From NCBI GenBank assembly GCA_004297165.1, contig SCUJ01000006.1:1648045-1712044 (forward strand): a DNA stretch of 64,000 nt. Reading direction: 5' to 3'. Shown in pieces: positions 8,265 to 51,464 of this stretch; positions within the stretch are counted from its first letter, which is position 1; the number at the start of each line of letters is the position of its first letter. The translations under genes and the position numbers were made by a program. Below the pieces are notes generated by a model. That model was not told the DNA's origin. It searched no databases and saw only the letters and a program-made list of their open reading frames with translations. Origin of the DNA: Gammaproteobacteria bacterium. Its GTDB lineage: Bacteria; Pseudomonadota; Gammaproteobacteria; Eutrophobiales; Eutrophobiaceae.

Positions 8265-8269
8265 TCCCG

Positions 8270-19614: not shown

Positions 19615-19647
19615 TCCTAGTAATTCTCCAATTTGAGGTTGCTTGTC

Positions 19648-21003
19648 ATGCGATCAGGTAATGGTGAAACGATAAGGGAGCCGGAACGTTCCATCCCGGT
19701 TTACGGAAGCACTGAGGTCCTCGTGGTCGGCGGGGGACCGGCCGGAGTCTGTGCCGCGATCGCCGCGGCGAGGGCCGGGGCCGAGGTCACGTTGGTGGAA
19801 CGCTATGGCTGTTTAGGCGGGTTGTCCACCGGCGGTCTCGTCATCTGGATCGACCGGATGACCGACTGGGAAGGCCGGTTGGTGGTCGGCGGGATCGGCA
19901 AGGAGATCACGGATGCCTGTGCGGCGGAGAAGGCCCTCATCGGCCCGCCGCCCGAACAATGGGGCTCGAAGGACCCGAAGCTCGCTGCCTACTGGGGCGT
20001 GCGCACCGCGGGTCACCGCGGCATCGTTAATTTTTCCCCCACGATCGATCCGGAAGTGCTGAAGCTGATCCTGAACGACATGGTGCGGGCAGCGAAGGTC
20101 AACGTGTTACTGCACAGTTGGGCGGTCGCCACTCTCTGCCGGGAGAATAAGGTCACCGGCGTCATCTTCGAAAGCAAGGAAGGCCGTTTCGCGATAAAAG
20201 CGGACATCACCATCGACTGTTCGGGTGATGGCGATATCTTCGCCAAGGCCGGGGCTGTATTTGAAAACGATTTTGACGGCGTCTCTGCTCACGCCCGGCT
20301 GAACACCAGTTTTCGCTTCGGCAACGTGGATATGCGCCGCTACCTGGATTTCCGGATGATCCATCCGGAACAGTACAGTACGCTCATGCGGGAGGCCAGC
20401 CACGAGGACGAGTGGCTTACGAATACAGCCTTTGTCACGCCCAATGACACCATCGCCCTTTTCCTGACTCCCAAATTCAGCGGCTATTCGGCCCTCAAGG
20501 TCGACGACCTCACCGAGGTGGAATTTCGCTCGCGGGACGTCATGCGTCAGGTGCTCGCCTGGTACCGAACCAGGATGCCGGGTTTTGAGCGGGCCTGGAT
20601 CCACGATACGGCCTCGCAGGTCGGCACCCGGCACAGCCGGCGTCTGAGAGGGATCGAGTGCGTGAGCAGCAAGGTGTGGCGGACGGACGGTTCCAGCGTG
20701 AACAGTATCGGCCTGTGCCCCGGACTCTCGCCGGAGTTCCCGACACTCGAGATCCCATATGGTGTGCTCTTGCCGGAGCGTATCGACGGCGTGCTGGCGG
20801 CAGGCCGCAATCTATCCTGTGATACGACTTCCCATGCCGCCTTAAGGGAGATCCCGGAATGCTGGGTGATGGGTCATGCTGCTGGAGTCGGAGCGGCGCT
20901 TGCAGTACATTCGAAGCAGACAGTTCGATCCGTGCCAATTGTGGAAATACAAAGTGAACTCGAACGCCAAGGTGCTATCGTCAGGCGGCAGGAGAGGAAA
21001 TAA
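19648..21003 (+). CDS. FAD-dependent oxidoreductase (PF12831-like, GG-x-STGG type)
   Basis: VLVVGGGPAGVCAAIAAARAGAEVTLVE Rossmann FAD motif near N-terminus; start at ATG 19648. Confidence 0.8.
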   Translation: MRSGNGETIREPERSIPVYGSTEVLVVGGGPAGVCAAIAAARAGAEVTLVERYGCLGGLSTGGLVIWIDRMTDWEGRLVVGGIGKEITDACAAEKALIGPPPEQWGSKDPKLAAYWGVRTAGHRGIVNFSPTIDPEVLKLILNDMVRAAKVNVLLHSWAVATLCRENKVTGVIFESKEGRFAIKADITIDCSGDGDIFAKAGAVFENDFDGVSAHARLNTSFRFGNVDMRRYLDFRMIHPEQYSTLMREASHEDEWLTNTAFVTPNDTIALFLTPKFSGYSALKVDDLTEVEFRSRDVMRQVLAWYRTRMPGFERAWIHDTASQVGTRHSRRLRGIECVSSKVWRTDGSSVNSIGLCPGLSPEFPTLEIPYGVLLPERIDGVLAAGRNLSCDTTSHAALREIPECWVMGHAAGVGAALAVHSKQTVRSVPIVEIQSELERQGAIVRRQERK

Positions 21004-21062: not shown

Positions 21063-24000
21063 TTAGTATGATGCCTTGAAGCCCACGAAGAAGCGGCGAC
21101 CGATGGTGTCGTAATACCCACCGCTATATCCGCCCAGCGTAGGCAGGCTATAGACGCCAGCGCCGCGGCAGCCCGGCGCATCGCCACACAGAGCAGTCGT
21201 GCTGATGTCCGAACCGGGCGCATAGCCGGTTGTACTCGCAAAGTGGTTCGGTTCGATATCTAGCACGTTCGTGATTCCGCCGCGCAGCGCGAACGTCTCG
21301 TTGATGCGCCAGTTAAGTGACAGATCGAGGATATCGTAGCTATCGGTCTTGATCTCCGTGCTTGGCACATAGCCCAATGTGACACCCGGTGCGCCCGCGG
21401 TAACCGCTGCGTTATTCTCGATGATCGCCAGTTGTGACGCTTTTCCTGCGGACCATACAGATGGCAAATGGCGCCACCGCAAGGCGACGTTCCAGTCATC
21501 CAGCGAGTAGCTTAGGGAACTGAAAAACCGATATTCATAAGCCCCAGCCTGAGTCCCAGGGAGGTTTGGTCCCAGCGAACCCTTCCATTCGGTCTCTATG
21601 TCAAACGACGCGGGGGACTGCTTGGTGGTGTAGTAGTCCAGGATCGTGCCCTGCACGCCCAAGCCGAGCCGGCCGGGCACATCTACGCCCAGATCCGCGA
21701 TCTCGCTGGACCAGTTCAGCATAATGTCGAAGCCTGAGGTCTCGATCGTAGCCTGGTTATCATACGAGAGCGTGGTGCTCAGCGAGACGCCGGTGCTGGT
21801 CTGGTCGCGCGGCACCAACCGGCAACCCAGCGTCGCCGCCTGCTCCGCCGCCTCCGCCGCGGTGGTAACGGTACGCGAGCCGAAACAACGGTAATTGGCG
21901 TAATCGATCGAATACGTCATGATGGCGTCCTCGATGTTTACCATCCACCAATCAAGCACCAGATTCACACCGGAAAGCCATGGGTTCTCGAATGGCGAAG
22001 AGAGCACAAAACCGGCCGTCCAGGTGTCTGCCTTCTCCGGTCGCAGTTCCGGGTTACCCTGTTGCAGGATCCATGCAAATCCGCCCCCGCCCGCTTGAGC
22101 GACAGCGTTCGTTACGTTGTAGAACTGGTTCTCCGCCACGCTGCCGGGACCGCCCATCATCTGCTGGCAGATCAAATGCGTACTGTCCGCACCGGCTTGC
22201 GTCTGTCCCGGAGCAAGCGCGGGGAGCGACTCGGTTCCGCTAAGTGTCGGGTCGATGCCGCCCGTGAAGCCGCCGGCGCCGAAAGGCGCGTTCGCGCGCA
22301 CCGAACATGGATCCCCGAAACTGCCGCCGCCGGCTATAATCTCCTGCGGGTTCAGGAACAGCTCGCCCAGGTTCGGTGAGCGTGTGGCGCGGTTATATCC
22401 ACCGCGCAACCGCAGCCAGTCCTTGACCTCCCAACTGCCCAAGAGCTTGTACGTCCACTCCGAGTTGTCCGTCTCATCGTAAATCGAGTAACGGGCGCCC
22501 ATCTCAAGCTCGAACTTCTGCACATACGGCAGGTCTGCCGCCACCGGGATCAGCGCCTCTAAGTAGAAATCATCCGCCATCGTACTAGCATTCAGATAGC
22601 CTGTCGGATAAACGCCAATCACCTCGTCAGTAAAGGACCGCTCCGATTGCAGGACGTCGGGATAAAAGATTCCGTTGACCTTGCGGTGCTGGTATCCCAT
22701 GGCGCCACGGGCCTCCCCGGCCGGCAGGTCATAGACACCGCCTTGCAGGTTCACCTCCACGATATCCTGGCGCATCTCTGTACGTGTCTGCAGCACTGCG
22801 TAGATGGCATCGAGACAGTCCTGCGACATCGGCGCATCGCCAAGAAAATACGTGTCATAGAATCCCGACCCGCAAGTAAAATCTCCCGCGCCGAACGCCC
22901 CCCTGGCAGCATTCACATCCCTTCCCGCCGCTGGAGTGGCGGGCAAGTTATAGATCGGGCCGACCGTATAGACGATATTACCCGTGCCTGAAGCGCCGCG
23001 GCCGTAATCGGGAAGGTTGGTCAAGGCGCGATAACGGGCCAGTGACAGGTTGCCCTCGGCGACGTTATAGACGCCTGACTCCCCATGCGAGGCATACAGC
23101 TCGGCGGTCCAATCGCGGAACGGCAATTCGATGTTGACCCCACCTTCGACTTGCCAAGTCTCATTCGTGTTGTAGGTATTGCGCGGTGGCGTGCTGTACG
23201 ACGGATTCCAGTTCGGAATCCAGTCCGCCGCCTGCTGCGAGGCACTCACCGGCTGACCGTTCCACGTTCCAACGAGTGCCGTATTAGTCGTCGCCCGAGG
23301 ATTAGGCGCCCCACCGGGTAATGTTGCAGAACAACCCGACTGCCCTGTGAGGCAATAAGTTGGCCAGCCCCGGCTGTTTAGCAGGATGGCCAACTCTGTC
23401 GGCACCGGATGATAATTGACAGCAGTACCGATGAGAGTATTGCCAGCGGCAAGCGATACGTTCTTATTGGTAAAATTACTGACTCCAGCAGTCGTACTAC
23501 AACCTGTAGTATTGGCTTGGCAATACTTCCAGGCGCCCGAGCCTGTCGGGATGAAATTCGGGTTGGCGTATGCGGAGGGATTCGCCAGAACTGCGGTAAC
23601 CACCGCCGGATCCGCGAAGTTTAATGCCGGGTTCACGGGACTATCGAACGTCGGGTTATAGGGTACCGAGGTCTCCCAACCGAAGGTCACTGAAGTTGTC
23701 TGCAACAGTGTGCGCGTCCGGCTCTCCGCGAATCTCGCCCCGCCGAAAAGTTCGATTCGGTCGGTCAAGTCGAAGTTTCCCGAGGTGAAAATCGAATACC
23801 GATCCTGCGGAGCGCTCGCATATCCCAAAGTACTGTTCCACTTCAGACCATCGAAAACCGTATTGTTGGTCGGGTCCGTGGCATCGAGAGTTTTCTGTAA
23901 TGCGTAAGTCTGCCCGTCCACAGTGATTTTGTGACGGGATTGTCCGCGGGCGCTGCCCAAGGCAAAGATGGTGCTGTCCGGGTTAATATAGTAGGTGCGG

Positions 24001-24935
24001 GAGTTGCCCACACCGGAGCCCGGAGCAACGTCAAAGTATACCGTCGAACCGGATACGGTAGCTGAGGATCTGCCAAAGGGGCTGCCGCCGCCGAACAACA
24101 CGTTAACAGCAGGCTGAGTCGGGCAATTTTGGTTACAGAAATACGCTCCGACGCCCTTAAGGCCGGTCACGGATGCCGAACCGGTTCGATCGGATGCCCA
24201 GAGGTCCGTATAGATGTCCCGCTCGATCTGGGCGGCTTCCTCCCTCTCGTAGCGTTCCAAACCAACCGTGACATTACCTCGGTCATCGGCTAGATTGGCG
24301 CCTAACGAGGCTGAGATGCGGCTTTCCGTGCCATCGCCAGCCTCGGTGATACCATACTGGCCATCGAACTCGAAGCCCTCGTAATCCTTCCTGGTTATGA
24401 AGTTGGTCACGCCACCCACCGCATCCGCGCCATACACGGAAGAGGCGCCCCCGGTAATCGTCTCCACACGCTGAAGCAGGGCTGAAGGGATGCTGTTGGC
24501 ATCCGTCACCATAAGTGGGTTTACCGGGACAGGTCGATGTCCGTCGAGTAACACCAAGCTTCGGTTGGGGCCAAAGCCGCGAAGCGAGATGGAGGCGATA
24601 CCCACTGAATTCGTCGGGGTGATCTGCACATCGCCTTGCGTAGTCACGGGCGAGGCGGCCGGGTTATATTCCGGCAACTGATTCAGATAAGACTCGACGT
24701 TCAAGCCGGTCTGTTGTTCGAACGCCTCGGACTCGATGGTTACGATTGGGCTGTTCGAGACATAGTCGCGGCGGACGATACGGCTACCGGTGACCGTGAC
24801 CTCCTCCAGATCTTCTCCTTCATCCTGCGCCTGGACGACGACGCCCAAGGAAAGCATGACGAAAGAGGATATTAACGCTTGATAGTACAAAAACCGGCAC
24901 TGACGAAGACAGCAGATGTACAAAGACTTGAACAT
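21063..24935 (-). CDS. Giant TonB-dependent receptor (about 1290 aa), tandem paralog A
   Basis: Signal peptide (…VVVQAQDEG), TonB box EEVTVTGSRIV, plug domain about 90% identical to paralog B, long barrel ending …GFKASY; start at second ATG with GGGGG RBS. Confidence 0.85.
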   Translation of the reverse strand: MFKSLYICCLRQCRFLYYQALISSFVMLSLGVVVQAQDEGEDLEEVTVTGSRIVRRDYVSNSPIVTIESEAFEQQTGLNVESYLNQLPEYNPAASPVTTQGDVQITPTNSVGIASISLRGFGPNRSLVLLDGHRPVPVNPLMVTDANSIPSALLQRVETITGGASSVYGADAVGGVTNFITRKDYEGFEFDGQYGITEAGDGTESRISASLGANLADDRGNVTVGLERYEREEAAQIERDIYTDLWASDRTGSASVTGLKGVGAYFCNQNCPTQPAVNVLFGGGSPFGRSSATVSGSTVYFDVAPGSGVGNSRTYYINPDSTIFALGSARGQSRHKITVDGQTYALQKTLDATDPTNNTVFDGLKWNSTLGYASAPQDRYSIFTSGNFDLTDRIELFGGARFAESRTRTLLQTTSVTFGWETSVPYNPTFDSPVNPALNFADPAVVTAVLANPSAYANPNFIPTGSGAWKYCQANTTGCSTTAGVSNFTNKNVSLAAGNTLIGTAVNYHPVPTELAILLNSRGWPTYCLTGQSGCSATLPGGAPNPRATTNTALVGTWNGQPVSASQQAADWIPNWNPSYSTPPRNTYNTNETWQVEGGVNIELPFRDWTAELYASHGESGVYNVAEGNLSLARYRALTNLPDYGRGASGTGNIVYTVGPIYNLPATPAAGRDVNAARGAFGAGDFTCGSGFYDTYFLGDAPMSQDCLDAIYAVLQTRTEMRQDIVEVNLQGGVYDLPAGEARGAMGYQHRKVNGIFYPDVLQSERSFTDEVIGVYPTGYLNASTMADDFYLEALIPVAADLPYVQKFELEMGARYSIYDETDNSEWTYKLLGSWEVKDWLRLRGGYNRATRSPNLGELFLNPQEIIAGGGSFGDPCSVRANAPFGAGGFTGGIDPTLSGTESLPALAPGQTQAGADSTHLICQQMMGGPGSVAENQFYNVTNAVAQAGGGGFAWILQQGNPELRPEKADTWTAGFVLSSPFENPWLSGVNLVLDWWMVNIEDAIMTYSIDYANYRCFGSRTVTTAAEAAEQAATLGCRLVPRDQTSTGVSLSTTLSYDNQATIETSGFDIMLNWSSEIADLGVDVPGRLGLGVQGTILDYYTTKQSPASFDIETEWKGSLGPNLPGTQAGAYEYRFFSSLSYSLDDWNVALRWRHLPSVWSAGKASQLAIIENNAAVTAGAPGVTLGYVPSTEIKTDSYDILDLSLNWRINETFALRGGITNVLDIEPNHFASTTGYAPGSDISTTALCGDAPGCRGAGVYSLPTLGGYSGGYYDTIGRRFFVGFKASY

Positions 24936-25147
24936 TGAAATTCCCCCCATGGATTGGATCCGTCTCAATCCGGCTTCACTGATAAGCCGAACCAAGATTC
25001 TTTATTACTTCTAGGAGGGATACTACAAAATCCAGTGCTCGGTTGTAAAGCGCTCTTAATTAAAGGGGTCGGAGTGGCGAATCTTGTATTCGCCATGGGA
25101 TAGAGGGCGATCACGAGGATCGCCTCTACGGTTCAGTTCGCGATGTA

Positions 25148-26776
25148 TCACCGCCATTCATCCACTGAAATTGTTTTCAAGTAGGTACCGCTCAGGATCT
25201 TCCACATGGCCCCGGTCTCGCCACCGACCACCACCACGCTGATATCCTCGGGTCGGAACATCTTGAGCGGCGTACCCGGTTCTGCCTTGAGAAAACTCGC
25301 ATACGGCTCGATCCCTGCGACCGCCTGCGGCAGTAGCAGGGTTTGTACCCACTGGTTATCCCAATATTCTCGTGCCGGGAGCAGACTGTTCTCCACGCAC
25401 CACTGGATAAGCTTCTGTTTAGTGTCAAAGCCCCTGTCGACAAAGCCTCTTGCAACCAGAGGGTCCAGCGCCAACACCGGACCGCTATAGGGGTCGCAGG
25501 CCGCGAGTGAACGGCGGAATTTTTCCTCCCAGGTCTCGCGGGGGCCTCCACCGAACTGGATATACCAGCCGCCCATGAACAGGCTCACGGCGCTATCTTC
25601 GGCCTTGTGTCCGTGTTGCACATGAAAGGGTTCCCAGGGGCTGCGTTCCTCGTTTTCCGCGAAGACCGCGCTGTAGGAATGCACGTTTCCCTGCGAGCCC
25701 ATGAAGCTCTCGCTTGGAACCGAGCCTCCCTGGAGATTCTGTGACAAGAGACCGTAGGCGCGGCCGATCGTAGCATTGGCGTGGTTGTAGGGCCCCATGG
25801 CCCCGATGCCGGAGTTCATGTTGATCTCGTTGCGCACCGGCCCGTTGACCATGGCAATCGTCGCCTGCGAGGTCGTACTGCTGGAACGCGCCGTGACGCA
25901 GGAGGCGGCCAGCGCCAGGATGACCGGAAAATATTCAGGCCGGGCCCCGGCCATGACCGCGTTCACGGCGACCTTTTCCACGGTGTATTCCCAGAGCTCG
26001 CGAAACCGGGCGGGTTGCAGGCGGCCCACCACTTTATCCGGGGCATGACTCGTGGCCTTGAGCATTGCCTCGACCCTGGCCTCGGTCGGCAGGACGATGG
26101 GCAGGAAATCCGTCCAGCGGTTCTCCTCGAAACGCTGATACAGGTTATCCTCCGTGTCGGGATCCAGCAGCCTTGGCGTGGAGCGATCGAAATCCATTCC
26201 CGCCTCATCCTCCTGCCGCAAAACGTCGGTGAGACCGTCGATCAGGCGTTTGATGAAGGGACCACCCTCGACCGCATCATCTCCTTCAATGTAGGCGCGC
26301 AGCTCCCCGGCGGATCGACCGACGACAGGTTGCGGTACAAAGGCCTGGCGCAGGGTGGGCAGGCCGTTGACCCTGGCGACGGAACGAACGAGCCGGGTGA
26401 AGACGTGGGTATGGACGGAGACCGTGGGTATGCCGTCCGCCTCCAATGCAATTGCTAGCCCGACGACCGTCGGGCTGCAAGAACTTCAAAGCCCCACGCC
26501 GAGGATAGCCGCATCACCCTCCGCCACGATTATTTCACGCATCGCCGGATCGTCGACCCAGCTTTCATGGGGTTTGATTGTCCGTACGATAACCCGCGGC
26601 AGGTGCTGTTCGAACCAGTCACGCAACTGATTCATGAACACCTCTGAATTGTCGAACAAACAATCCACAAGGTACAGGATCTTCCCGTCCAGGGCCTCGA
26701 GTCTGGGGGCAAGTCGTTTGCCAGAGACTTTCGGTGGATACCCTCTCGGGTCATGGACTCGAATTAATGAAGACAT
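25148..26776 (-). CDS. Putative selenoprotein, uncharacterised family (copy 2): single in-frame TGA at 26486-26488 read as selenocysteine in U-S-S-C motif; no signal peptide
   Basis: ORFs 26486..26776 and 25148..26446 are in the same frame separated by one TGA; downstream ORF begins with TTG; conserved peptide VGL-U-SSCSPTVVG; hairpin AGCCCGACG-GT-CGTCGGGCT 10 nt after UGA (+ coords 26457-26476). Confidence 0.6.
26457..26476 (-). ncRNA. Candidate bacterial SECIS-like hairpin downstream of the in-frame UGA of selenoprotein copy 2
   Basis: Perfect 9-bp inverted repeat containing GGTCGTCGGG core shared with copy 1. Confidence 0.45.
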
Positions 26777-26797: not shown

Positions 26798-27310
26798 TTA
26801 CCTGGCCCGTTTCACATAAATGAACCCGCCTCTGTCCTCGGCTGTCAGTTTGTAGCCGCCACCGAAGATCGTCGGGTAGATTCGCACCCGCTGTCCCACC
26901 GTCAGTTCATAACGCCGGGTGACATGTTGCTGCCAAATTTGGCCGTTCTGCAGAGTAACGATCCAGCCATCCGGACGTTTTTCCAGCGCGGCTATCGTGT
27001 CTACCAATTCAGTCGTTTCTTCAGCTTCCGAATTTCTCTGGCGCGCCATCTCCTGCCGTAGCCTCTGGTTCTCAATCATCAGGCGCTGCGCATCTGCCGC
27101 TTGTGGCTGATTATCTACGAGACTGTCATAACAAGCAGCGCGAGCCGCGATGACCTGGATCGCACGGCACCGATTGAGGGCTTGATCGCTACCTTGTGCG
27201 ACAGCTTCCGTCCAAGTTATTGCAGCAGCGACCAGCAGGAAGGTAGAGGGTATATTCGAACAAAATATTGATGGTTTTTTTTGATGACGTTGTGGTCTTT
27301 GCGGCTTCAT
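26798..27310 (-). CDS. Hypothetical secreted/periplasmic protein with coiled-coil segment
   Basis: 170 aa; hydrophobic signal-like N-region; 21 nt upstream of selenoprotein copy 2 on the same strand. Confidence 0.45.
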   Translation of the reverse strand: MKPQRPQRHQKKPSIFCSNIPSTFLLVAAAITWTEAVAQGSDQALNRCRAIQVIAARAACYDSLVDNQPQAADAQRLMIENQRLRQEMARQRNSEAEETTELVDTIAALEKRPDGWIVTLQNGQIWQQHVTRRYELTVGQRVRIYPTIFGGGYKLTAEDRGGFIYVKRAR

Positions 27311-27425: not shown

Positions 27426-30400
27426 TTAGTACGAGACTTTCAACCCTACAAAGAAGCGGCGACCCAGGGTGTCGTAGTAACCACCATTAAAACCACCCTG
27501 TGTATACAGACTGCGTCCGTTCGGGTTTATACAACCAGGCGCTCCGCCACAGACCGCCTGCAGAGAGGCAGAGTCAGGATATTGCTCAGGTGTATAACCC
27601 GCTGTGCTGCCGACATTTTCCGGTTCTGTATCGAGCAGGTTAGTTATACCTGCTCGAAACGTAAACGTCTCGTTGTAATTCCAGTTGGCTGCCAAATCGA
27701 AGATATTGTAACTGTCAGTCTCTATTTCCGTAGTTGGCGTGTAACCCAGCAGTAGACCCGGTGTACCTGCCGAAACAGCAGTATTATTCTCGATGATGGC
27801 CATCTGGGAAGCGTAACCAGCAGTCCAAACCGACGGCAGATGACGCCAGCGCATCGTTACACTCCAGTTGTCCAGGTTATAACTAAGCGCACCGAATATG
27901 CGATAGTCATAGGCCCCGGCGTTGGTTCCGGGCAGAGTCGGGCCCAAGGAGCCGGTCCAATCTGTTTCCACATCGAAGGATGCGACTGATTGCTTCGTGA
28001 TATATTCGTTCAAGATCGTCGTCTGCAGATTGAAACCCAAGCCACCTGGCACATTAATGCCAAGATCCTGGAGCTGAGCCGACCAGTTGAACGCGATATC
28101 AAAACCAGAGGTATCAATCGTGGCCAAATTATCGTAGATCAGCGTGGAAGTAAGACCTGATCCATTGCGTTGGTCGCGGGGAAGGTTTTGACAGGCTGGA
28201 GTACTAGCCTGCGCTGCCGCTTCTGCTGGTGTACTCACGATCGTGCCAAAGCATTGAAAGTTGGCATAATCGACTGACCGCGTCATGATGGCATTATTGA
28301 TTTCCACCATGTACCAGTCGAACGACAGCGTGATGCCTGAAAGCCATGGATTCTCCAACGGCGAGCTAACAACAAACCCGGCTGTCCAGGTGTCCGCCTT
28401 TTCAGGACTCAGGGCAGTGTTCCCTTCCTGCAGTACCCAGGCGAAACCACCTCCAGCCGCAGCAACGGCATCAAGTCCTGAACGATAGAAATAGTCAGCG
28501 CCAGCAGTACCCATCAAAGCTTCACAAATCAATTGAGAGCTATTCGCGCCTGCCAGTGTTTGACCAGGCGCCAGCGTCGGAGCCGTTTCACTGGGATTCG
28601 TCACAATCGGGTCAGTCGCAAGAGATGTTCCGCCGGCACCGAAGGGAGAATTACTGCGGATAGCGCATGGGTCACCGAAGTTACCACCAGCGCCGAATAC
28701 TTCCTGCTTGTTCAGGAATAATTCACCCAGGTTGGGCGACCGAGTGGCCTTGTTGAAGCCACCACGCAGGCGCAACCAGTCTTGTGCCTCCCAGTTGCCC
28801 AGGATCTTCCAAGTCCATGCCGTGTCACCCGTCTCTTCATAATCCGAATAGCGGGCGCCAGTTTCTATTTCGAATTTCTGCATGTATGGCAGATCCGCCA
28901 CCACCGGTATTAATGCCTCGACATAGAAATCGTCGGCCGTTGTGGTTTCATCCAGATATCCGGTGGGATAGACGCCTACCACTTGATCGGTGAAGGAATC
29001 TTCCGACTGAAGGATATCAGGATTGAACTTGCCATTAACATTGCGGTGCTGGAACCCAATCGCGGATCGAAGTTCGCCGGCCGGGAGGTCATACACCCCG
29101 CCCTGGAGGTTCACTTCCACGATATCCTGGGCCATTTCCGTGCGGGTTTGCAGAGTGGCATTGATGGCATTGAAGCAGTCTTCCGACAGCGGTTGATCGC
29201 CCCCAAAGTACGTATCGTAGAAACCTGAAGTACATTCGAAATCACCGACACCGAAGGCCGGTCGGATCGAATTTACTGTTTCGACTCCATTTTCGGAAAC
29301 TACGGTGTAAGTCTGGTTACCAGTACCAACTGCGCCACGACCATAGTCAGGCAGATTGGTCAGGGCACGGTAACGACTCAATGACAGGTTACCGCCAGCG
29401 ACGTTATAGGTGCTGGATTCGCCGTGGGAGAAATAGACTTCACCAGTCCAGTCGCGGAATGGCAACTCGAAATCCACGCCGCCTTCAACCTGCCAAGTCT
29501 GGATAGTGTTGTAGGTGTTACGTGGCGGCAGGCTGGTATCGGGATTCCACTGCGGTTGCCAACGTGCAGCCGGGCCGGTATTAGCAACAGGGGTACCTGC
29601 CAAAGCCGGGTCGCGTGTCACTACTGTGAAATCACCCTGGAACGGCAGCGGGCAGGCAAAGGTGCCATACAGACAGTACGTATGTACGTTCCTGCTGTTC
29701 AGCAACATGGCAAGTTGCGCCGGTACGGGATGCCCTGCGCCGGGACTCCCGGTCGGGATGAAGCCCGGATTTGCGTACGCTGCGGGGTTGGCCGCGACAA
29801 GCTGCATCAGAGCGACATCATCATAATTGAGCGTCGGGTCGATCGGACTGTCTGTCGTTGGATTATAAGGAACACTTGTTTCCCAACCACTGATGGCATT
29901 GGTACCGAACAAAATAGTGCTAGTCTTGCTTTCCGCATAGTTCACTTTAGCAAATACCGAGACCGTATCTGTTACATCAAAGTGGCTCGATGCAAAGGCA
30001 GAATAACGGTCTTGTGGCGCACTGGCGTAAGCCTTGGTGTTATTCCATTTAATTCCATCCATGGTTCTCAAACCGGCCGCATCACTGTTATCCAGAGCGG
30101 TACGGTGGGCATATTGCAAGCCATCGAAAGTGCCTTTGAATTTGGACTGACCCAAAGGTGTCTGGAACGGGAACCCGGCTGTCCAAATGGTGCCATCCGC
30201 ATTGAACTGTATATCAACGTAGGTTGGCATTTCACCTGTAGCAGGGGCGAAACCAGCGAAGAACGCGCTGGGATTCTGGCCACCGAACAAGCCCCTTAGA
30301 GCCGCATTGGATGGGCAATTGGGGTCACAACTGTACGCATTTGTACCCTGGATGAAAATGAAGGAACCTGCTGTATCCGGATCGGCCCAGTAGTCCTTGT

Positions 30401-31127
30401 AAATATCCCTTTCTATCTGCATGGCCTCTTTCCTTTCATAGCGCTCGAGACCAAGAGTTACGTTGCCGCGATCATCAGCAAAATTCGCCCCGAACAAGGC
30501 GGAGATACGGCTTTCCTCGCCGTCTCCTGCCTCCGATATACCGTACTGGCCATCGAACTCGAAGCCCTCGTAATCCTTCCGCAGAATAAAGTTGGTCACG
30601 CCACCCACCGCATCAGCACCATACACAGACGAGGCGCCGCCGGTGATTGTTTCCACACGCTGTATAAGAGCTGAGGGGACGCCGTTGATATCGGTTACCA
30701 TCAGGGCGTTGACCGGGACCGGCCGCTTACCGTCAACCAGGGCCAAACTGCGGTTAGGGCCGAAGCCGCGCAATGAGATGGAGGCGATACCCACTGAATT
30801 CACTGGTGTGATCTGCACATCGCCTTGGGTGGTAACCGGCGAGGCGGCCGGATTGTATTCCGGCAACTGGTTCAGGTAGGACTCAACATTCAGCCCGGTC
30901 TGCTGTTCGAATGCCTCGGACTCGATGGTCACGATCGGGCTGTTCGACACGTAGTCGCGGCGGACGATACGGCTACCGGTAACCGTAACCTCCTCCAATT
31001 CGCCTCCTGCTTGATCCTGCGCCTGGGCACCGCTGCCCAGGGAAAACAACGATAACGCGGATATCAGCGCCGGGCGCGGCAATAACCGGCTCAGACGGAG
31101 TGTGCGAAAGTACAAAGACCTTATCAT
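27426..31127 (-). CDS. Giant TonB-dependent receptor (about 1230 aa), tandem paralog B
   Basis: Signal peptide (…GSGAQAQDQ), TonB box EEVTVTGSRIV, plug and barrel; C-terminus …VGLKVSY. Confidence 0.85.
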   Translation of the reverse strand: MIRSLYFRTLRLSRLLPRPALISALSLFSLGSGAQAQDQAGGELEEVTVTGSRIVRRDYVSNSPIVTIESEAFEQQTGLNVESYLNQLPEYNPAASPVTTQGDVQITPVNSVGIASISLRGFGPNRSLALVDGKRPVPVNALMVTDINGVPSALIQRVETITGGASSVYGADAVGGVTNFILRKDYEGFEFDGQYGISEAGDGEESRISALFGANFADDRGNVTLGLERYERKEAMQIERDIYKDYWADPDTAGSFIFIQGTNAYSCDPNCPSNAALRGLFGGQNPSAFFAGFAPATGEMPTYVDIQFNADGTIWTAGFPFQTPLGQSKFKGTFDGLQYAHRTALDNSDAAGLRTMDGIKWNNTKAYASAPQDRYSAFASSHFDVTDTVSVFAKVNYAESKTSTILFGTNAISGWETSVPYNPTTDSPIDPTLNYDDVALMQLVAANPAAYANPGFIPTGSPGAGHPVPAQLAMLLNSRNVHTYCLYGTFACPLPFQGDFTVVTRDPALAGTPVANTGPAARWQPQWNPDTSLPPRNTYNTIQTWQVEGGVDFELPFRDWTGEVYFSHGESSTYNVAGGNLSLSRYRALTNLPDYGRGAVGTGNQTYTVVSENGVETVNSIRPAFGVGDFECTSGFYDTYFGGDQPLSEDCFNAINATLQTRTEMAQDIVEVNLQGGVYDLPAGELRSAIGFQHRNVNGKFNPDILQSEDSFTDQVVGVYPTGYLDETTTADDFYVEALIPVVADLPYMQKFEIETGARYSDYEETGDTAWTWKILGNWEAQDWLRLRGGFNKATRSPNLGELFLNKQEVFGAGGNFGDPCAIRSNSPFGAGGTSLATDPIVTNPSETAPTLAPGQTLAGANSSQLICEALMGTAGADYFYRSGLDAVAAAGGGFAWVLQEGNTALSPEKADTWTAGFVVSSPLENPWLSGITLSFDWYMVEINNAIMTRSVDYANFQCFGTIVSTPAEAAAQASTPACQNLPRDQRNGSGLTSTLIYDNLATIDTSGFDIAFNWSAQLQDLGINVPGGLGFNLQTTILNEYITKQSVASFDVETDWTGSLGPTLPGTNAGAYDYRIFGALSYNLDNWSVTMRWRHLPSVWTAGYASQMAIIENNTAVSAGTPGLLLGYTPTTEIETDSYNIFDLAANWNYNETFTFRAGITNLLDTEPENVGSTAGYTPEQYPDSASLQAVCGGAPGCINPNGRSLYTQGGFNGGYYDTLGRRFFVGLKVSY

Positions 31128-31323
31128 CTTGTTATCCCCCATGGGTTTGTAGGCAATTCGTGCAGGCTTCGCGTGGAAGCCGGACAACTGTGTTGTAATA
31201 TTATCCCGTCGGATATTACGAAATCAAGCATGTTGATACAACGTGTCTTAAAAACAACACGACATAACACATTGTTACTAGCGATTGTTGCTCAACTTCG
31301 ACCAGTGTGCCACTTTGAGAACA

Positions 31324-32478
31324 TCACCACCATAAATCCTTGGTGGCAAGCTTCGCCCCCGCGACCAGCGCCTCGAATTTGGCCCACATGACCTGGGGAT
31401 GCACACGGGCGATGCGTTGTGCCTGGGCAAAGCCGCAGTCGGCGCCGGCAATGACATTTTCCCGGCCAACAATCCGGGCGAAACGTACAATTCGATCGGC
31501 GACCACCTGGGGGTGTTCAACCGTCGTCGTGTGATGGGTGATGACGCCGGGAATAAGGATTTTCCCCTCCGGCAGCCGTACTTTCTCCCAGACCCGCCAC
31601 TCATGTTCATGTCGGGGATTCGCGGCCTCGATCGAATAGGCCCCGGCCCTAACCTGCAGGATCAATCGCGCCATCTCCGAGAGCGGGGCGTCTGACACGT
31701 GCGGGACATGCCAACTGCCGAAGCAGATATGGTAGCGAATACGATCTTCAGGGATTCCGGACAAGGCGTGATTAAGAGCCTCCACACGCAATTCTGCCCA
31801 TTGCCGGTATTTGTCCGGGCTCTGTTGCACGAGATGATCGTACATATTGGCGAGTACGGCATCGTCCACCTGTACCAGCAGACCGGCGGCATGAATCTGA
31901 AGATATTCCTCCCGCAGGGCCTCGGCCAAGGCATGTATATATTCCCGCTCCGTGGCGTAATGCTCATTTACCCCGTTAAATGCGGCGCTGGCAGGCGCAA
32001 CCGTGGTGAGAAAGGCCTCCGTGACAATTACTTTGGTTAATGCCTTTTTGAATAACTCGATATTTGTGGCGATAGAGCGCTGGTCCACATAACGAATGGG
32101 TCCGGTGCAGGCATCGACGGGCAACCCTTCTACGCCCACGGGCATTTCGAGGGCGAAAAATTCTTTGAAGCGTTCCCGATCCCTGCCCAGCCAGTCGGCG
32201 GGGATCTTTTGTTGCGGCCGGTTTTCGAACCCGCTGATACGCTCCAGGATGTAATTGGCCCAACTGGATTTACCGAATTCACCATCGTTGACGATATCGA
32301 TGCCGATCTCGACCTGACGCTTGACCACATCGTCGATTGCCATCTGCATGGTGGACCGGTAATTCGCATCTTCCAGCGGCGGCTTGCCGGTGTATGCCTT
32401 GGTGAAAGAAACCAGGGATTCCGGCCGGATCAGGCTGCCGACATGAGTGGTGAGAATTCGATCTGTACTACGTTTCAT
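31324..32478 (-). CDS. Cobalamin-independent methionine synthase (MetE C-terminal/UROD-like) family Zn methyltransferase
   Basis: 384 aa; His-x-Cys (IRYHICFGSWH) and downstream Cys (GADCGFAQ) Zn-ligand pattern typical of MetE-like enzymes. Confidence 0.75.
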   Translation of the reverse strand: MKRSTDRILTTHVGSLIRPESLVSFTKAYTGKPPLEDANYRSTMQMAIDDVVKRQVEIGIDIVNDGEFGKSSWANYILERISGFENRPQQKIPADWLGRDRERFKEFFALEMPVGVEGLPVDACTGPIRYVDQRSIATNIELFKKALTKVIVTEAFLTTVAPASAAFNGVNEHYATEREYIHALAEALREEYLQIHAAGLLVQVDDAVLANMYDHLVQQSPDKYRQWAELRVEALNHALSGIPEDRIRYHICFGSWHVPHVSDAPLSEMARLILQVRAGAYSIEAANPRHEHEWRVWEKVRLPEGKILIPGVITHHTTTVEHPQVVADRIVRFARIVGRENVIAGADCGFAQAQRIARVHPQVMWAKFEALVAGAKLATKDLWW

Positions 32479-32503
32479 CTGAATTTATTTCCCTGGATAG
32501 CGG

Positions 32504-33613
32504 TTAACGAAAACTGTCGGCGACCTGTTTATGGACCTCCATGAGCTTAGGGATGGTATCCACCTGCCTGCGCCCCCAACCACACTCCGTAGCGATCCCG
32601 AATCCACCCTGATAATGACGGCGGAAGGACTCCAGGCGTTTCAACGTTCCCGGCACGCCGTCCGTGAGATGAACGAGGCCGATATAGAGTTTGGTGGACC
32701 CTACCGCCAGATCGCGCAACGGTTCGAAATAGGCATCGTCGCTGCGATTCCTCGGGACCGGCATGTGCACATAATCGAAGCGCCTTCCGGCATGTTTAAC
32801 CGCCAGATTCGCCATGCGCACCGCCACGCCCAGGTCTTTTGGTTCTATCAGATGGGAATGTTCCAGATCGCCGTAGCATAAATGCATGCCGAGCGTTACC
32901 TCGGAAGGAATCCCCGGCGACAACTCCGCGAGATAGGCGGCATAGCGCTCATAGGGATCGCCCTCTGCCTTCCAGGCGAGAGGTTCCCGGCCCAGATAAT
33001 CGCCGGTATCGCACGCGAAAACCTCCCAGCAGACATCCCACTGGATGGACAGATCCGTAGCCGGGATCGCGCGCAGCAGTATGGCGACCTCCCTTTTCAA
33101 GACGTCGACGATCGCCTGTGTCATGATCCTAAAATCCCGTTTGTCCCCCGTGCACCAGCGAGTGAAATCCTCGGGAAATGGGAAATTCACCTGATAGCGG
33201 GTATGCCGGGGGATGATGCCGGCATCCCGCAAATTGCGGAAAGTCGCATAACACTCGATGGCGAAATCGGCGTAATGAATGGTATCGAATTGAATCTTGT
33301 CGACGCTGTCCTTGACCTTGCAACGCCACATCTCTTCCCAACTCGTGGGGAGCCAGTCGGGGATATCCTTCTTGAAGACTGTTTTGTCGCGATTCGGTTT
33401 GGGTTTGTTGGTGATGATAATCCCGGGATTGGGTTCGTAGACATGCGGGGCATTAAACACCACCCACATGTTCCGATAGCCGGGTTCGCCGTGGGAGAGA
33501 CCGGCGAGTCGATCGCCCAGCGCCGGGGCGAGCAATCTGAAGGTGTCTTCCGCCGTGGCGCACGGCACGCTGCCCACCATTAAAACGGATCTATCCCGCA
33601 TATAATCATTCAT
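32504..33613 (-). CDS. Second MetE-like/UROD-like putative methyltransferase (paralogous fold)
   Basis: 369 aa; MHLCYGDLEH and ATECGWG motifs mirror the Zn-ligand pattern of the neighbour. Confidence 0.55.
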   Translation of the reverse strand: MNDYMRDRSVLMVGSVPCATAEDTFRLLAPALGDRLAGLSHGEPGYRNMWVVFNAPHVYEPNPGIIITNKPKPNRDKTVFKKDIPDWLPTSWEEMWRCKVKDSVDKIQFDTIHYADFAIECYATFRNLRDAGIIPRHTRYQVNFPFPEDFTRWCTGDKRDFRIMTQAIVDVLKREVAILLRAIPATDLSIQWDVCWEVFACDTGDYLGREPLAWKAEGDPYERYAAYLAELSPGIPSEVTLGMHLCYGDLEHSHLIEPKDLGVAVRMANLAVKHAGRRFDYVHMPVPRNRSDDAYFEPLRDLAVGSTKLYIGLVHLTDGVPGTLKRLESFRRHYQGGFGIATECGWGRRQVDTIPKLMEVHKQVADSFR

Positions 33614-33844
33614 GAACGATTCCTCATCTCAAAGCCGGAACGAAATCCGGCGTAAAGGGCTCGCCTCACCAGGCGGCCCTTCCAAAAGACCTCTACACCG
33701 ATTGCCGGTTTAACATGAAATACCTGGCCTGGCAACAATGCCTCCTTGGCCTTATTTGTGATGACAAAACCTCACTTATACTTGGTATATATTTAGTTGT
33801 ACCTTAACAATACCTTTACCACTCCAACTACAGGAGTTTCAGAG

Positions 33845-35239
33845 ATGAGCAAGAAGAGTCTGGAAGAGTTGTTAAAATCGTTCGGCAACCCGGTGCAGAT
33901 GCTGCGCAATTCCAAGACCGGCCCCAATGTCTACCCTGGCGTACCGCCGGAATTCACCAACTGGCGCGATGAACAGTCGGCCTGGCAGAAGACCTGCGTC
34001 CTCTTCAACCAGTCCTATCACATGGCCGATCTCGCGGTGGAAGGACCGGACGCGCTCAAACTGTTGAGCCATCTCGGGGTAAACACCTTCGCCAATTTCA
34101 GCATCGACAAGGCCAAGCAGTTTGTGCCGTGCAGTTATGACGGCCATATCATCGGCGATGTCATCCTCTTCTACCTTGCCGATAAGAAATTCAACCTGGT
34201 TGGGCGCATCCCCGTACTGAACTGGGTCATGTTCCATGCGGCAACCGGCGGGTATGACGTCAAGGTGGAACTGGACGAGCGCTCCGCCGCCCGGCCCGAC
34301 CCCTTCAACCGCAAGTCCTACCGCTTCCAGATCCAGGGCCCCAACGCCATGAAGACGATTGAAAAGGTCACCGGGAAGAAACCGCCGGAACTGAAATTCT
34401 TCAACATGTGCGGCATGAGCATCGCCGGAAAACAGGTCCGCGCCTTACGCCATGGCATGGCCGGGCAACCCGGATTCGAGCTGTTCGGTCCCTGGGCGGA
34501 TGGCGAGGCGGTGCGGGAGGCCCTGGTCAAGGCCGGCGAGGAATTCGGCCTGCGCCAGGTGGGCGGACGCGCCTATTCCTCCAACACCCTGGAATCCGGC
34601 TGGATCCCTTCTCCGCTTCCCGCCATCTATTCAGGCGCGAAAATGAAACCCTACCGGGAATGGCTCACGGAAGACAGCTACGAGGCCAGGGCCTCGATCG
34701 GCGGCAGTTTCAACTCGGCGAAAATCGAGGATTATTATCTGACACCCTGGGACGTGGGATACGGGCCGTTCGTGAAGTTCGACCACGAGTTCATCGGCCG
34801 GGAGGCGCTCGAACAGATGGCGAAACACCCGCTGCGAACCAAGGTCACGCTGGCGCTAGACAGCGCGGATGTCACCCGCGCCATCAGCAGCCAACTGGAC
34901 AAGGGCGACCGGGCGAAATTCATCGAGTTTCCCTCCGCCGTGTATTCCATGCATCCCTATGACAAGGTCACGGTCAAGGGCAAGACCGTCGGCGTTTCCA
35001 CCTGGATCGGCTACAGTTCCAACGAGCGCAGGATGCTGACGCTCGCCATCCTCGATAATGAATACGCCAAGCCCGGCACGGATGTGACCCTGGTGTGGGG
35101 CGAGGAAGGCGGCGGCACCGCGAAGCCCACCGTGGAGCCGCATGTCCAGACCGAGATCAGGGCGACAGTCAGCCCGGTGCCTTATTCGGAGGTCGCGCGG
35201 AAGGAGTATGCTGAGGGTTGGCGCACAGGGAAATTCTAA
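33845..35239 (+). CDS. Aminomethyltransferase (GcvT) family protein, tetrahydrofolate-dependent demethylase-like (LigM/DmdA-type)
   Basis: 464 aa, RBS aggag; GcvT-family architecture and size closer to LigM-type aryl-O-demethylases than to GcvT. Confidence 0.75.
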   Translation: MSKKSLEELLKSFGNPVQMLRNSKTGPNVYPGVPPEFTNWRDEQSAWQKTCVLFNQSYHMADLAVEGPDALKLLSHLGVNTFANFSIDKAKQFVPCSYDGHIIGDVILFYLADKKFNLVGRIPVLNWVMFHAATGGYDVKVELDERSAARPDPFNRKSYRFQIQGPNAMKTIEKVTGKKPPELKFFNMCGMSIAGKQVRALRHGMAGQPGFELFGPWADGEAVREALVKAGEEFGLRQVGGRAYSSNTLESGWIPSPLPAIYSGAKMKPYREWLTEDSYEARASIGGSFNSAKIEDYYLTPWDVGYGPFVKFDHEFIGREALEQMAKHPLRTKVTLALDSADVTRAISSQLDKGDRAKFIEFPSAVYSMHPYDKVTVKGKTVGVSTWIGYSSNERRMLTLAILDNEYAKPGTDVTLVWGEEGGGTAKPTVEPHVQTEIRATVSPVPYSEVARKEYAEGWRTGKF

Positions 35240-51170: not shown

Positions 51171-51464
51171 TCACAGTATTCAAAATCAAAATACTCCCCG
51201 TAAAAAACCCGTACCTGTCGGTCTGGTTTACATCCCTATATACCTCAAAACAGGTATGAATTACCTTGAGAATCAATGAGGAAAGCTCGTAAACCTGCGT
51301 TACAAACACGACCAGTTGTCGGATTTGTTTACATGACTCAATTCGTATGTCCAATAACTCATTGAATATTCTAATATTTATATATTGGCATAATACGTGC
51401 TGGTCTTAAGATTATGGTGGTGAATATTTTTCACTTTGAAACAATTCTTAAGAGGAATTCATAC

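What the first reader, a model, noticed from the sequence alone, without database searches (positions are those of the whole stretch)
25148..26776. Paralogous second copy with TGA at the same aligned position and a compensatory-variant hairpin
On the minus strand, ORFs 26486..26776 and 25148..26446 are again in the same frame with a single TGA (26486-26488) between them. The readthrough gives …AILGVGL-U-SSCSPTVVGLAIALEADGIPTV…. The downstream ORF begins with TTG. Ten nt after the UGA lies a perfect inverted repeat AGCCCGACG-GT-CGTCGGGCT. The shared core CCCG(A/G)CGGTCGTCGGG differs from copy 1 by an A-U versus G-U pair, consistent with selection on RNA structure as well as on the P-x-V-V-G peptide. 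Chance coincidence of frame, TGA identity, motif and hairpin in two diverged paralogs (about 45-50% protein identity) is very unlikely. This copy lacks a signal peptide, so it is cytoplasmic whereas copy 1 is exported.
Basis: seen in the sequence. Interest (0 to 1): 0.85.

Follow-up and report, generated by a model that had tools for sequence, protein, structure and literature searches.

The report
Known UGSC-family selenoprotein gene, second copy

Summary
On the minus strand, 26776..25148 is one 542-codon frame broken only by TGA 26488..26486. Nine nt later comes an 8-bp stem with a GGUC tetraloop (26476..26457). Copy 1 (6522..8264, +) is a 42%-identical paralogue with TGA at the same aligned position.

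All 137 relatives read from public contigs have TGA there: 96 copy-2-like sites in 80 genome loci and 41 copy-1-like sites in 44 metagenome loci. In 120 full-length homologues from Pseudonocardia, Microbacterium, Phaeobacter and metagenomes the position is the first Cys of C-S-T-C. The GGUC loop is invariant. A stem pair made of two synonymous third-codon positions occurs as G-C, C-G, A-U and U-A and is never unpaired. TGA also ends 10 of 29 ordinary genes in the window, including this one.

The N-terminal 160 aa match Pfam UGSC (PF24696), a selenoprotein family described in 2007-2008 and named by NCBI. The C-terminal 345 aa have no Pfam match and no solved structural relative.

Cytoplasmic copies usually sit next to a thioredoxin-reductase-like gene. 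Exported copies usually sit next to a secreted TlpA-like thioredoxin. This points to a recyclable Sec-x-x-Cys reductase centre.

Verdict: correct, well supported, already known; function still open.

The parts
25148..26776 (-). Copy 2: complete long-form UGSC-family selenoprotein gene. It has 542 codons including Sec, predicts a product of about 60 kDa, and ends at a TGA stop at 25150..25148.
   Evidence: Single frame. tblastn of the readthrough product matches residues 1-542 in one frame in 80 genome loci. Pfam PF24696 scores 90.7 bits.
26486..26488 (-). Selenocysteine codon UGA (residue 97), first residue of the U-S-S-C redox motif.
   Evidence: TGA at 96 of 96 copy-2-like sites. It aligns with the first Cys of CSTC in 120 of 120 Cys-clade proteins.
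26457..26476 (-). Bacterial SECIS hairpin: an 8-bp stem (26476..26469 pairing with 26464..26457) and a GGUC apical loop (26468..26465). In this copy the stem extends by 3 pairs, with a bulged A, to 26479..26453.
   Evidence: Fold results. Loop invariant in 137 of 137 sites, and 93.7% of cells paired against 25-50% for slid controls. Pair 30-39 occurs as GC 36, CG 9, AU 2, UA 2, unpaired 0.
26294..26758 (-). N-terminal UGSC domain (residues 7-161), carrying the Sec-x-x-Cys centre after a beta-strand and at the start of a helix.
   Evidence: Pfam PF24696, E = 1.5e-25. In the AF2 model of the Cys homologue P0122 this domain is flavodoxin-like.
25151..26185 (-). C-terminal conserved domain of about 345 aa (residues 198-542), with motifs WTDxLPIxxPT, VAVNAVMAG, NGP, ANxxIGRA and ENExSPWxPxHV. 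Function unknown.
6522..8264 (+). Copy 1: paralogous long-form UGSC selenoprotein gene (580 codons), the exported form.
   Evidence: Translation. 42% identity to copy 2. 44 metagenome relatives, and 41 of 41 readable sites have TGA.
6522..6608 (+). Signal-peptide-like N-terminus of copy 1 (MRDQTRISSHLWRGMLIICCMLCGHSIQA | QD...).
   Evidence: A positively charged n-region, a hydrophobic core and an A-x-A-like end. Equivalent segments precede the conserved YTVLNPTG motif in almost all complete copy-1-like loci. No signal-peptide predictor was available, so this was judged by eye.
6909..6911 (+). Selenocysteine codon UGA of copy 1 (U-S-T-C motif).
6923..6938 (+). SECIS hairpin of copy 1: a 6-bp stem including one G-U pair, with a GGUC loop at 6929..6932.
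   Evidence: -9.6 kcal/mol. In 39 of the 41 metagenome relatives pair 27-42 is G-C; only the closest relative, L081, has the C-G seen in window copy 1, so this is a compensatory change.

Best explanation
Window 26776..25148 (minus strand) is one gene for a selenoprotein of about 60 kDa. The UGA at 26488..26486 is decoded as selenocysteine. A bacterial SECIS hairpin lies 9 nt downstream, with an 8-bp stem and a GGUC apical loop. By analogy with E. coli, SelB carrying Sec-tRNA(Sec) would bind that loop and deliver Sec to the ribosome. That delivery step is inferred, not shown.

The protein is a long-form member of the known UGSC selenoprotein family. An N-terminal flavodoxin-like UGSC domain carries a Sec-x-x-Cys centre. 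It is fused to a conserved C-terminal domain of about 345 aa with unknown function and no solved structural relative. Copy 1 (6522..8264) is an exported paralogue with the same recoding device.

The function is inferred from gene neighbourhoods, with roughly 50% confidence. The Sec-x-x-Cys centre would cycle between selenenylsulfide and selenol/thiol. It would be re-reduced by a dedicated thioredoxin-reductase-like flavoprotein in the cytoplasm, or by a TlpA-like thioredoxin in the periplasm. That would make the protein the substrate-facing half of a small reductase system whose substrate, bound by the C-terminal domain, is unknown.
For: Recoding:
- One continuous frame with a single TGA.
- TGA at 96 of 96 copy-2-like sites from Gammaproteobacteria, Alphaproteobacteria, Burkholderiales, Acidobacteriota and bins labelled Actinomycetes or Planctomycetales, and at 41 of 41 copy-1-like sites.
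- The site is the first Cys of CSTC in 120 of 120 full-length Cys homologues.
- Gene callers truncate all 120 closest database proteins just after the TGA.
- TGA is an ordinary stop for 10 of 29 Pfam-supported genes in the window, including this gene itself.

SECIS:
- The GGUC loop is invariant although two of its bases are synonymous third positions.
- Pair 30-39 (Pro third position with Val third position) takes all four Watson-Crick forms and is never mispaired. 93.7% of cells are paired, against 25-50% for slid controls, and 0 of 500 shuffles reach the observed covariation score.
- L080 and the copy-1 clade show further double changes.
- All four constraints of the published bSECIS model are met: a 3-9 nt loop, G in the first two loop positions, 16-37 nt spacing, and MFE <= -7.5 kcal/mol (PMC13188914, read). 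The values here are a 4-nt loop, GG, 17 nt, and -14.5 and -9.6 kcal/mol.
- The two distinct Cys-form loci whose DNA was read have no such hairpin, and none of the 120 Cys-clade proteins has the V-G residues that encode its 3' arm.

Family:
- Pfam UGSC scores 90.7 bits against a cut-off of 25.
- NCBI names relatives 'UGSC family (seleno)protein'.

Function:
- A TrxB-like gene (TIGR01292, 272 bits) is adjacent on the same strand in 49 of 80 cytoplasmic-type loci and in 0 of 44 exported-type loci.
- A secreted WCPPC thioredoxin (AhpC-TSA/Redoxin) and a secreted rhodanese are each found in 28 of 44 exported-type loci and in 0 of 80 cytoplasmic-type loci.
- Cys-form genes in Pseudonocardia and Phaeobacter are also directly adjacent to TrxR-like genes; in Pseudonocardia the stop and start codons overlap.
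Against: No selA, selB, selD or tRNA-Sec lies in the 64-kb window, and the rest of the genome cannot be read. Nothing here is experimental.

In the window itself, neither copy has a TrxR-like or TlpA-like neighbour. Copy 2 sits between two TonB-dependent receptor genes, and this context is not shared even by its closest relative.

Several clades of the wider family have lost both redox residues. The C-terminal domain can therefore work without the redox centre, which weakens the reductase reading.

Copy 1's 71-nt context does not fold better than shuffled sequence (z = +1.59). Only the short hairpin is stable.
Confidence: 0.9

Rival explanations
1. The TGA is a real stop. The locus would then be a split or decaying gene, giving a 96-aa N-terminal fragment plus a separately initiated 432-aa protein from TTG 26446.
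For: Gene callers in public data annotate exactly this: all 120 closest proteins start after the TGA. TGA is a normal stop elsewhere in the window.
Against: The TGA is kept at 137 of 137 sites across phyla, and both flanks stay conserved in frame. A decaying gene would not do this. The position aligns with a catalytic-type Cys in fused Cys homologues. No Shine-Dalgarno precedes TTG 26446. The split would cut the UGSC domain in the middle of its fold.
Confidence: 0.03
2. The hairpin is only a by-product of a conserved peptide (S-P-T-V-V-G) and is not itself selected. Sec insertion, if any, would use another signal.
For: Most stem bases are first or second codon positions of conserved residues. 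Three of 11 pairs never vary.
Against: Synonymous third positions covary in Watson-Crick fashion: pair 30-39 has four pair types and no mismatch, and pair 27-42 shows C-G, U-A, U-G and, in the copy-1 clade, G-C. Synonymous loop positions are invariant. Cys-clade homologues vary freely at the V-G positions, and the two distinct Cys-form loci read have no hairpin, so the peptide follows the RNA rather than the reverse.
Confidence: 0.03
3. UGA is read by a non-Sec route, either through genome-wide reassignment to Trp or Gly, or through near-cognate readthrough.
For: None specific. It cannot be excluded formally without the Sec machinery genes in hand.
Against: 10 of 29 confident genes in the window terminate at TGA, including this gene. 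The site is a Cys in homologues, not Trp or Gly. A SECIS-type hairpin with a G-rich apical loop lies at the canonical distance.
Confidence: 0.02

Closest known systems
UGSC-containing / UGSC family (seleno)protein (Pfam PF24696, NCBIfam NF041046). Reported in the Olavius symbiont work (PMC1976440, 2007) and the GOS selenoproteome study (PMC2398784, 2008), and listed in the 2026 review PMC13188914.
   Same: The N-terminal domain matches the Pfam model well above its cut-off. It has a UxxC motif after a beta-strand. It is overwhelmingly Sec rather than Cys in environmental bacteria. Its function is unknown.
   Different: The classic family is a protein of about 150 aa with U-G-S-C. These genes are 542 and 580 aa, have U-S-S-C and U-S-T-C, and score below the NCBIfam equivalog cut-off (64.6 against 125). 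The AF2 model gives a flavodoxin-like fold, not the Trx-like fold suggested in 2008.
'UGSC/Unknown_1' fusion selenoprotein noted in the GOS study (PMC2398784, Fig. S1A).
   Same: A UGSC domain fused to a conserved domain of unknown function, found in aquatic organisms.
   Different: The figure is held only as an image, so I could not verify that Unknown_1 is this C-terminal domain. The identity is likely but untested.
Bacterial SECIS elements, of the E. coli fdhF type and the bSECISearch consensus.
   Same: A stem-loop inside the coding region just 3' of UGA, with a small apical loop whose first positions are G and G/U, a 17-nt spacer and a stable upper stem. From my own memory, the fdhF apical loop is also GGUC, with G23 and U24 contacting SelB.
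   Different: No bulged U on the 5' arm. No Rfam family matches. The stem sequence is specific to this protein family because it doubles as codons for S-P-T-V-V-G.
Thioredoxin-reductase-dependent Sec reductases such as glycine reductase or D-proline reductase selenoprotein B (GrdB/PrdB, UxxC).
   Same: This concerns how it may work, not family membership. Both have a UxxC selenoprotein genetically coupled to a TrxB-type flavoprotein. The UxxC motif of PrdB is listed in PMC2398784.
   Different: No sequence match to the GRDB Pfam family even at E <= 10. No GrdA, GrdE or PrdA partners are present. Homology was not tested at profile-profile level.

Membership tests
Bacterial selenoprotein gene (Sec-UGA plus bSECIS) | In-frame UGA aligned with Cys in homologues, with conserved coding sequence on both sides | tested here: met
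   137 of 137 sites have TGA. CSTC occupies the site in 120 of 120 Cys homologues. tblastn covers residues 1-542 in one frame.
Bacterial selenoprotein gene (Sec-UGA plus bSECIS) | Stem-loop meeting the bSECIS model: loop of 3-9 nt, G in the first two loop positions, 16-37 nt from UGA, MFE <= -7.5 kcal/mol | tested here: met
   Model taken from PMC13188914. Here: GGUC loop, 17-nt spacer, -14.5 kcal/mol for copy 2 and -9.6 kcal/mol for copy 1.
Bacterial selenoprotein gene (Sec-UGA plus bSECIS) | Structure conserved with compensatory changes in orthologues | tested here: met
   pair 30-39 is GC 36, CG 9, AU 2, UA 2 with none unpaired, and the covariation score exceeds all 500 shuffles and all slid controls. 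Further double changes.
Bacterial selenoprotein gene (Sec-UGA plus bSECIS) | Genome encodes selA, selB, selC (tRNA-Sec) and selD | not testable with these tools
   No tRNA in the window and no sel genes among the annotated ORFs. The rest of the genome is not available.
Bacterial selenoprotein gene (Sec-UGA plus bSECIS) | Selenium demonstrated in the protein (75Se labelling or mass spectrometry) | not testable with these tools
   Requires an experiment.
UGSC family (Pfam PF24696) | Match above the Pfam gathering score | tested here: met
   90.7 bits against a cut-off of 25, residues 7-161.
UGSC family (seleno)protein, NCBIfam NF041046 equivalog (short form, profile of 147 positions) | Score at or above the curated cut-off of 125 bits | tested here: not met
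   64.6 bits for copy 2. The copy 1 N-terminal fragment scores 22.3 bits. These genes are therefore a diverged long-form subfamily, not the equivalog. NCBI nevertheless gives relatives this name.
UGSC family | Literal U-G-S-C motif | tested here: not met
   The motif is U-S-S-C in copy 2 and U-S-T-C in copy 1 and most orthologues. The UxxC spacing is kept.
Thioredoxin-fold oxidoreductases (the fold proposed for UGSC proteins in 2008) | Thioredoxin fold | tested here: not met
   [not shown]

The most novel reading that the evidence does not exclude
Long-form UGSC proteins would be the catalytic subunit of an undescribed, widespread two-component reductase. More than 7,600 relatives were scored in the 90%-identity cluster database, and 4,186 representatives at 50% identity match the part of the protein downstream of the Sec codon. 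The substrate-binding C-terminal domain would have a fold with no solved relative. The Sec-x-x-Cys centre would be recharged by a dedicated TrxB-like flavoprotein in the cytoplasm, or by a TlpA-like thioredoxin in the periplasm. A second point: the SECIS dictates the V-G dipeptide, a clean case of an RNA element shaping a protein sequence.
Probability: 0.4. Interest if true: 0.5.

Novelty: already known. Interest (0 to 1): 0.25.

Why it matters
For genome annotation, both genes are split by standard gene callers, and all 120 closest database entries are truncated after the TGA. Each should be annotated as a single selenoprotein gene.

Biologically, the family is abundant in soil and aquatic bacteria and still has no known function.
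- The partner genes divide by compartment: TrxR-like with cytoplasmic forms, TlpA-like thioredoxin plus rhodanese with exported forms.
- The UGSC domain is predicted to be flavodoxin-like.
- The C-terminal domain has no solved structural relative.
- Cultivable hosts carry Cys forms (Phaeobacter italicus, Pseudonocardia, Microbacterium), which allows genetics.

None of this changes the verdict that the finding itself, a Sec codon plus SECIS in a second paralogue, is a correct identification of a known kind.

Tried and rejected
- Rfam at gathering threshold on the whole window, and at E <= 10 on 26380..26560, found no SECIS or other credible family.
- ARAGORN found no tRNA or tRNA-Sec in the window.
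- A PDB sequence search with the post-TGA part found only a chance hit at E = 0.59.
- Pfam at E <= 10 found nothing for the C-terminal domain and no weak GRDB or thioredoxin hits for the N-terminal domain.
I used the post-TGA part and the natural Cys homologue P0122 as a proxy for the full-length fold.
- The AFDB fold libraries were unavailable. The claim of no structural relative therefore covers solved structures only.
- Foldseek's best hits to the C-terminal domain, the Toblerone-fold cyclic amide hydrolases, have E = 0.02 and TM of about 0.2. I rejected them as insignificant.
- Fig. S1A of PMC2398784 is held only as an image, so 'Unknown_1' could not be matched.
- A search for the conserved partner genes in the window found no TrxR-like or TlpA-like gene, only a weak match to the rhodanese gene at 36107..36985.
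- The window neighbours of copy 2 (the 170-aa secreted protein and the TonB-dependent receptors) are not found near any relative. I rejected them as functional partners.
- I decided against building a covariance model of the hairpin. Its sequence is largely fixed by the family's codons, so the model would only find the same genes again.

Full report
**1. The observation**

An ATG at 26776 is preceded by an AAGGA Shine-Dalgarno. After 96 sense codons comes a single TGA at 26488..26486, then 445 more sense codons in the same frame, ending at a TGA stop at 25150..25148. The readthrough peptide is ...AILGVGL-U-SSCSPTVVGLAIALEADGIPTV....

A two-base loop cannot form, so RNAfold gives an 8-bp stem closed by a GGUC tetraloop. 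The hairpin alone folds at -14.5 kcal/mol. In this copy the stem extends by three more pairs. The 71-nt context folds at -33.6 kcal/mol, with z = -3.85 against dinucleotide shuffles.

The 16-nt core CCCGRCGGTCGTCGGG occurs exactly twice in the window, against 0.02 expected by chance. The second site, 6923..6938 (+), lies just after another in-frame TGA (6909..6911) in a 580-codon frame, 6522..8264. The two readthrough products are 42% identical over 511 residues (E = 5e-125), and the TGAs align.

**2. Is the TGA a selenocysteine codon?**

A scan of one genome per species returned 80 loci in which the 542-aa readthrough product matches in a single frame. They come from Gammaproteobacteria, Alphaproteobacteria, Burkholderiales, Acidobacteriota (Vicinamibacterales) and a few bins labelled Actinomycetes or Planctomycetales. 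Counting tandem paralogues, these give 96 sites, and all 96 have TGA at the aligned position. A metagenome scan with copy 1 gave 44 loci, and all 41 readable sites have TGA.

An exhaustive HMMER search of 1.84 billion representatives, run with the part of copy 2 that lies downstream of the TGA, found full-length relatives of 545-570 aa with Cys at the site. P0122, P0128 and P0154 have CSTC, and P0124 has CPGC. Other relatives have lost the motif altogether. A further search seeded with P0122 returned 120 full-length proteins, and all 120 have C-S-T-C where the window has U-S-S-C or U-S-T-C. Those with a named source come from Pseudonocardia, Microbacterium, Agromyces, Georgenia, Phaeobacter, Pararhodobacter, Pseudoruegeria and Aquamicrobium; the rest are from metagenomes.

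By contrast, the 120 closest database proteins to copy 2 are all truncated and start just after the TGA. This is the usual gene-caller artefact for selenoproteins. TGA is not reassigned in this genome. It terminates 10 of 29 Pfam-supported genes in the window, including this gene.

**3. Is the hairpin selected as RNA?**

- The GGUC loop is identical in all 137 sites, although its first and last bases are synonymous third positions of Thr/Ala and Val codons.
- The stem pair formed by the third base of the Pro codon and the third base of the second Val codon takes every Watson-Crick form and is never mispaired. Across 92 distinct sequences the counts are G-C 76, C-G 12, A-U 2 and U-A 2.
- On a 49-sequence alignment, 93.7% of cells pair, against 25-50% when the 3' partners are slid by 1-3 columns. 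None of 500 column shuffles reaches the observed covariation score.
- L080 carries a non-synonymous double change, A-U to G-C, which changes Thr to Ala and Val to Ala.
- The copy-1 clade swaps pair 27-42 between C-G (window copy 1 and L081) and G-C (the other 39).
- The element meets all four constraints of the published bacterial SECIS consensus, read in PMC13188914: a 4-nt loop, G in the first two loop positions, a 17-nt spacer, and an MFE below -7.5 kcal/mol.
- As a control, the DNA of two distinct Cys-form genes has no comparable hairpin. The residues encoded by the 3' arm, V-G in every Sec form, are variable in the 120 Cys-form proteins (S/A/T followed by T/A/K) and are never V-G.

The conserved 'V-V-G' is therefore better explained as a footprint of the RNA stem than as a protein requirement. 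The one difference between the two window copies (A-U versus G-U) is a single-sided change that preserves pairing. It is not a compensatory pair.

**4. What the protein is**

Residues 7-161 match Pfam PF24696 'UGSC family' (90.7 bits against a cut-off of 25). The NCBIfam equivalog NF041046, which models the short form, is hit below its cut-off (64.6 against 125).

The UGSC-containing protein is a known selenoprotein family of unknown function:
- It is mentioned in 2007 (PMC1976440).
- In 2008 it was among the most abundant selenoprotein families in the GOS metagenomes, with 255 Sec forms and 21 Cys forms. A 'UGSC/Unknown_1' fusion was noted there (PMC2398784).
- It is listed in a 2026 review (PMC13188914).
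- NCBI already names long relatives 'UGSC family (seleno)protein'.

No paper in the searchable library assigns a function.

**5. How it probably works**

The gene neighbourhoods divide cleanly by compartment.

| Neighbour gene | Copy-2-like loci (no signal peptide) | Copy-1-like loci (signal peptide) |
|---|---|---|
| Thioredoxin-reductase-like (TIGR01292, 272 bits, CASC motif) | 49 of 80 | 0 of 44 |
| Secreted WCPPC thioredoxin (AhpC-TSA/Redoxin) | 0 of 80 | 28 of 44 |
| Secreted rhodanese | 0 of 80 | 28 of 44 |
| Unknown secreted protein of 196 aa | 0 of 80 | 21 of 44 |

In the copy-2-like loci the TrxR-like gene usually lies immediately upstream on the same strand. Many of the remaining copy-1-like contigs end before the downstream region. 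All copy-1-like relatives carry a conserved signal peptide. Cys-form genes in Pseudonocardia (flanked by two TrxR-like genes with overlapping stops and starts) and in Phaeobacter show the same link.

I infer that the Sec-x-x-Cys centre is a redox-cycling selenenylsulfide. A compartment-appropriate disulfide reductant would re-reduce it, and the C-terminal domain would bind the unknown substrate. I hold this at about 50%, for two reasons. Several clades have lost both redox residues. And the window's own two copies lack these partner genes.

Copy 2 sits between two 62%-identical TonB-dependent receptor genes and next to a 170-aa secreted protein. This context is not shared by any relative. Copy 1 keeps its GSDH and Amidohydro_2 neighbours only in its closest relative, L081.

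**6. Verdict**

The thing found is a member of an already described and database-named selenoprotein family, so it is not novel.

What remains open is the family's function and the nature of its C-terminal domain. The Sec machinery cannot be checked from this window, and nothing here is experimental.

Noticed in passing
L012, L013, L014, L016, L018, L020, L021, L025, L028, L029, L030, L038, L039, L044, L053, L073 (for example L014 3289 and 4996): In many Vicinamibacterales (Acidobacteriota) and Hyphomicrobiales/Xanthobacteraceae genomes, two Sec-containing long-form UGSC genes lie in tandem on the same strand. Each has its own TGA and GGUC hairpin. In the window, by contrast, the two paralogues are 18 kb apart on opposite strands.
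   Followed up: partly
L001-L080 versus L081-L124; L125-L128: Partner genes divide by compartment. A TrxB-like flavoprotein is adjacent in 49 of 80 cytoplasmic-type loci and in 0 of 44 exported-type loci. A secreted WCPPC thioredoxin and a secreted rhodanese are each found in 28 of 44 exported-type loci and in 0 of 80 cytoplasmic-type loci. I did not find this described in the searchable literature.
   Followed up: yes
[not shown]
   Followed up: partly
window 26457..26464 (-), the codons for V-G; Cys clade P0271-P0389: The V-G dipeptide after the Sec motif is invariant in Sec forms. It is never present in the 120 Cys-form homologues, which have S/A/T followed by T/A/K. The SECIS 3' arm appears to dictate these two residues.
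   Followed up: yes
window 21063..24995 (-) and 27426..31187 (-): Two unusually large TonB-dependent receptor genes (1310 and 1253 aa) flank copy 2. They are 62% identical overall and nearly identical over the plug domain (residues about 60-250). This suggests a duplication, with the selenoprotein gene and a 170-aa secreted-protein gene (26798..27310) lying between the copies.
   Followed up: partly
window 31324..35239: A cluster of a MetE-like methyltransferase (Meth_synt_2, 31324..32478), an unannotated 369-aa ORF (32504..33613) and a GcvT-like aminomethyltransferase (33797..35239), next to an FAD_oxidored gene at 19633..21003. It may be a methyl-group or C1 catabolic module.
   Followed up: no
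window 8222..9142 (+) and 9248..10714 (+): Copy 1 is followed by an Amidohydro_2 gene, whose longest ORF overlaps the end of copy 1 by 43 nt, and by an RPE65-family carotenoid/stilbene oxygenase gene. Amidohydro_2 genes also precede the Cys-form gene in Phaeobacter (L125), together with Rieske and GFA genes. This may hint at a shared pathway.
   Followed up: partly
window 25095..25135 (-): An inverted repeat (AGAGGCGATC...GATCGCCCTCT) lies just after the stop of copy 2, with no T-run. The terminator scan did not call it.
   Followed up: no
window 51414..52283 (+) and 54146..54973 (-): Two PEP-CTERM proteins. They imply an exosortase system in this organism.
   Followed up: no
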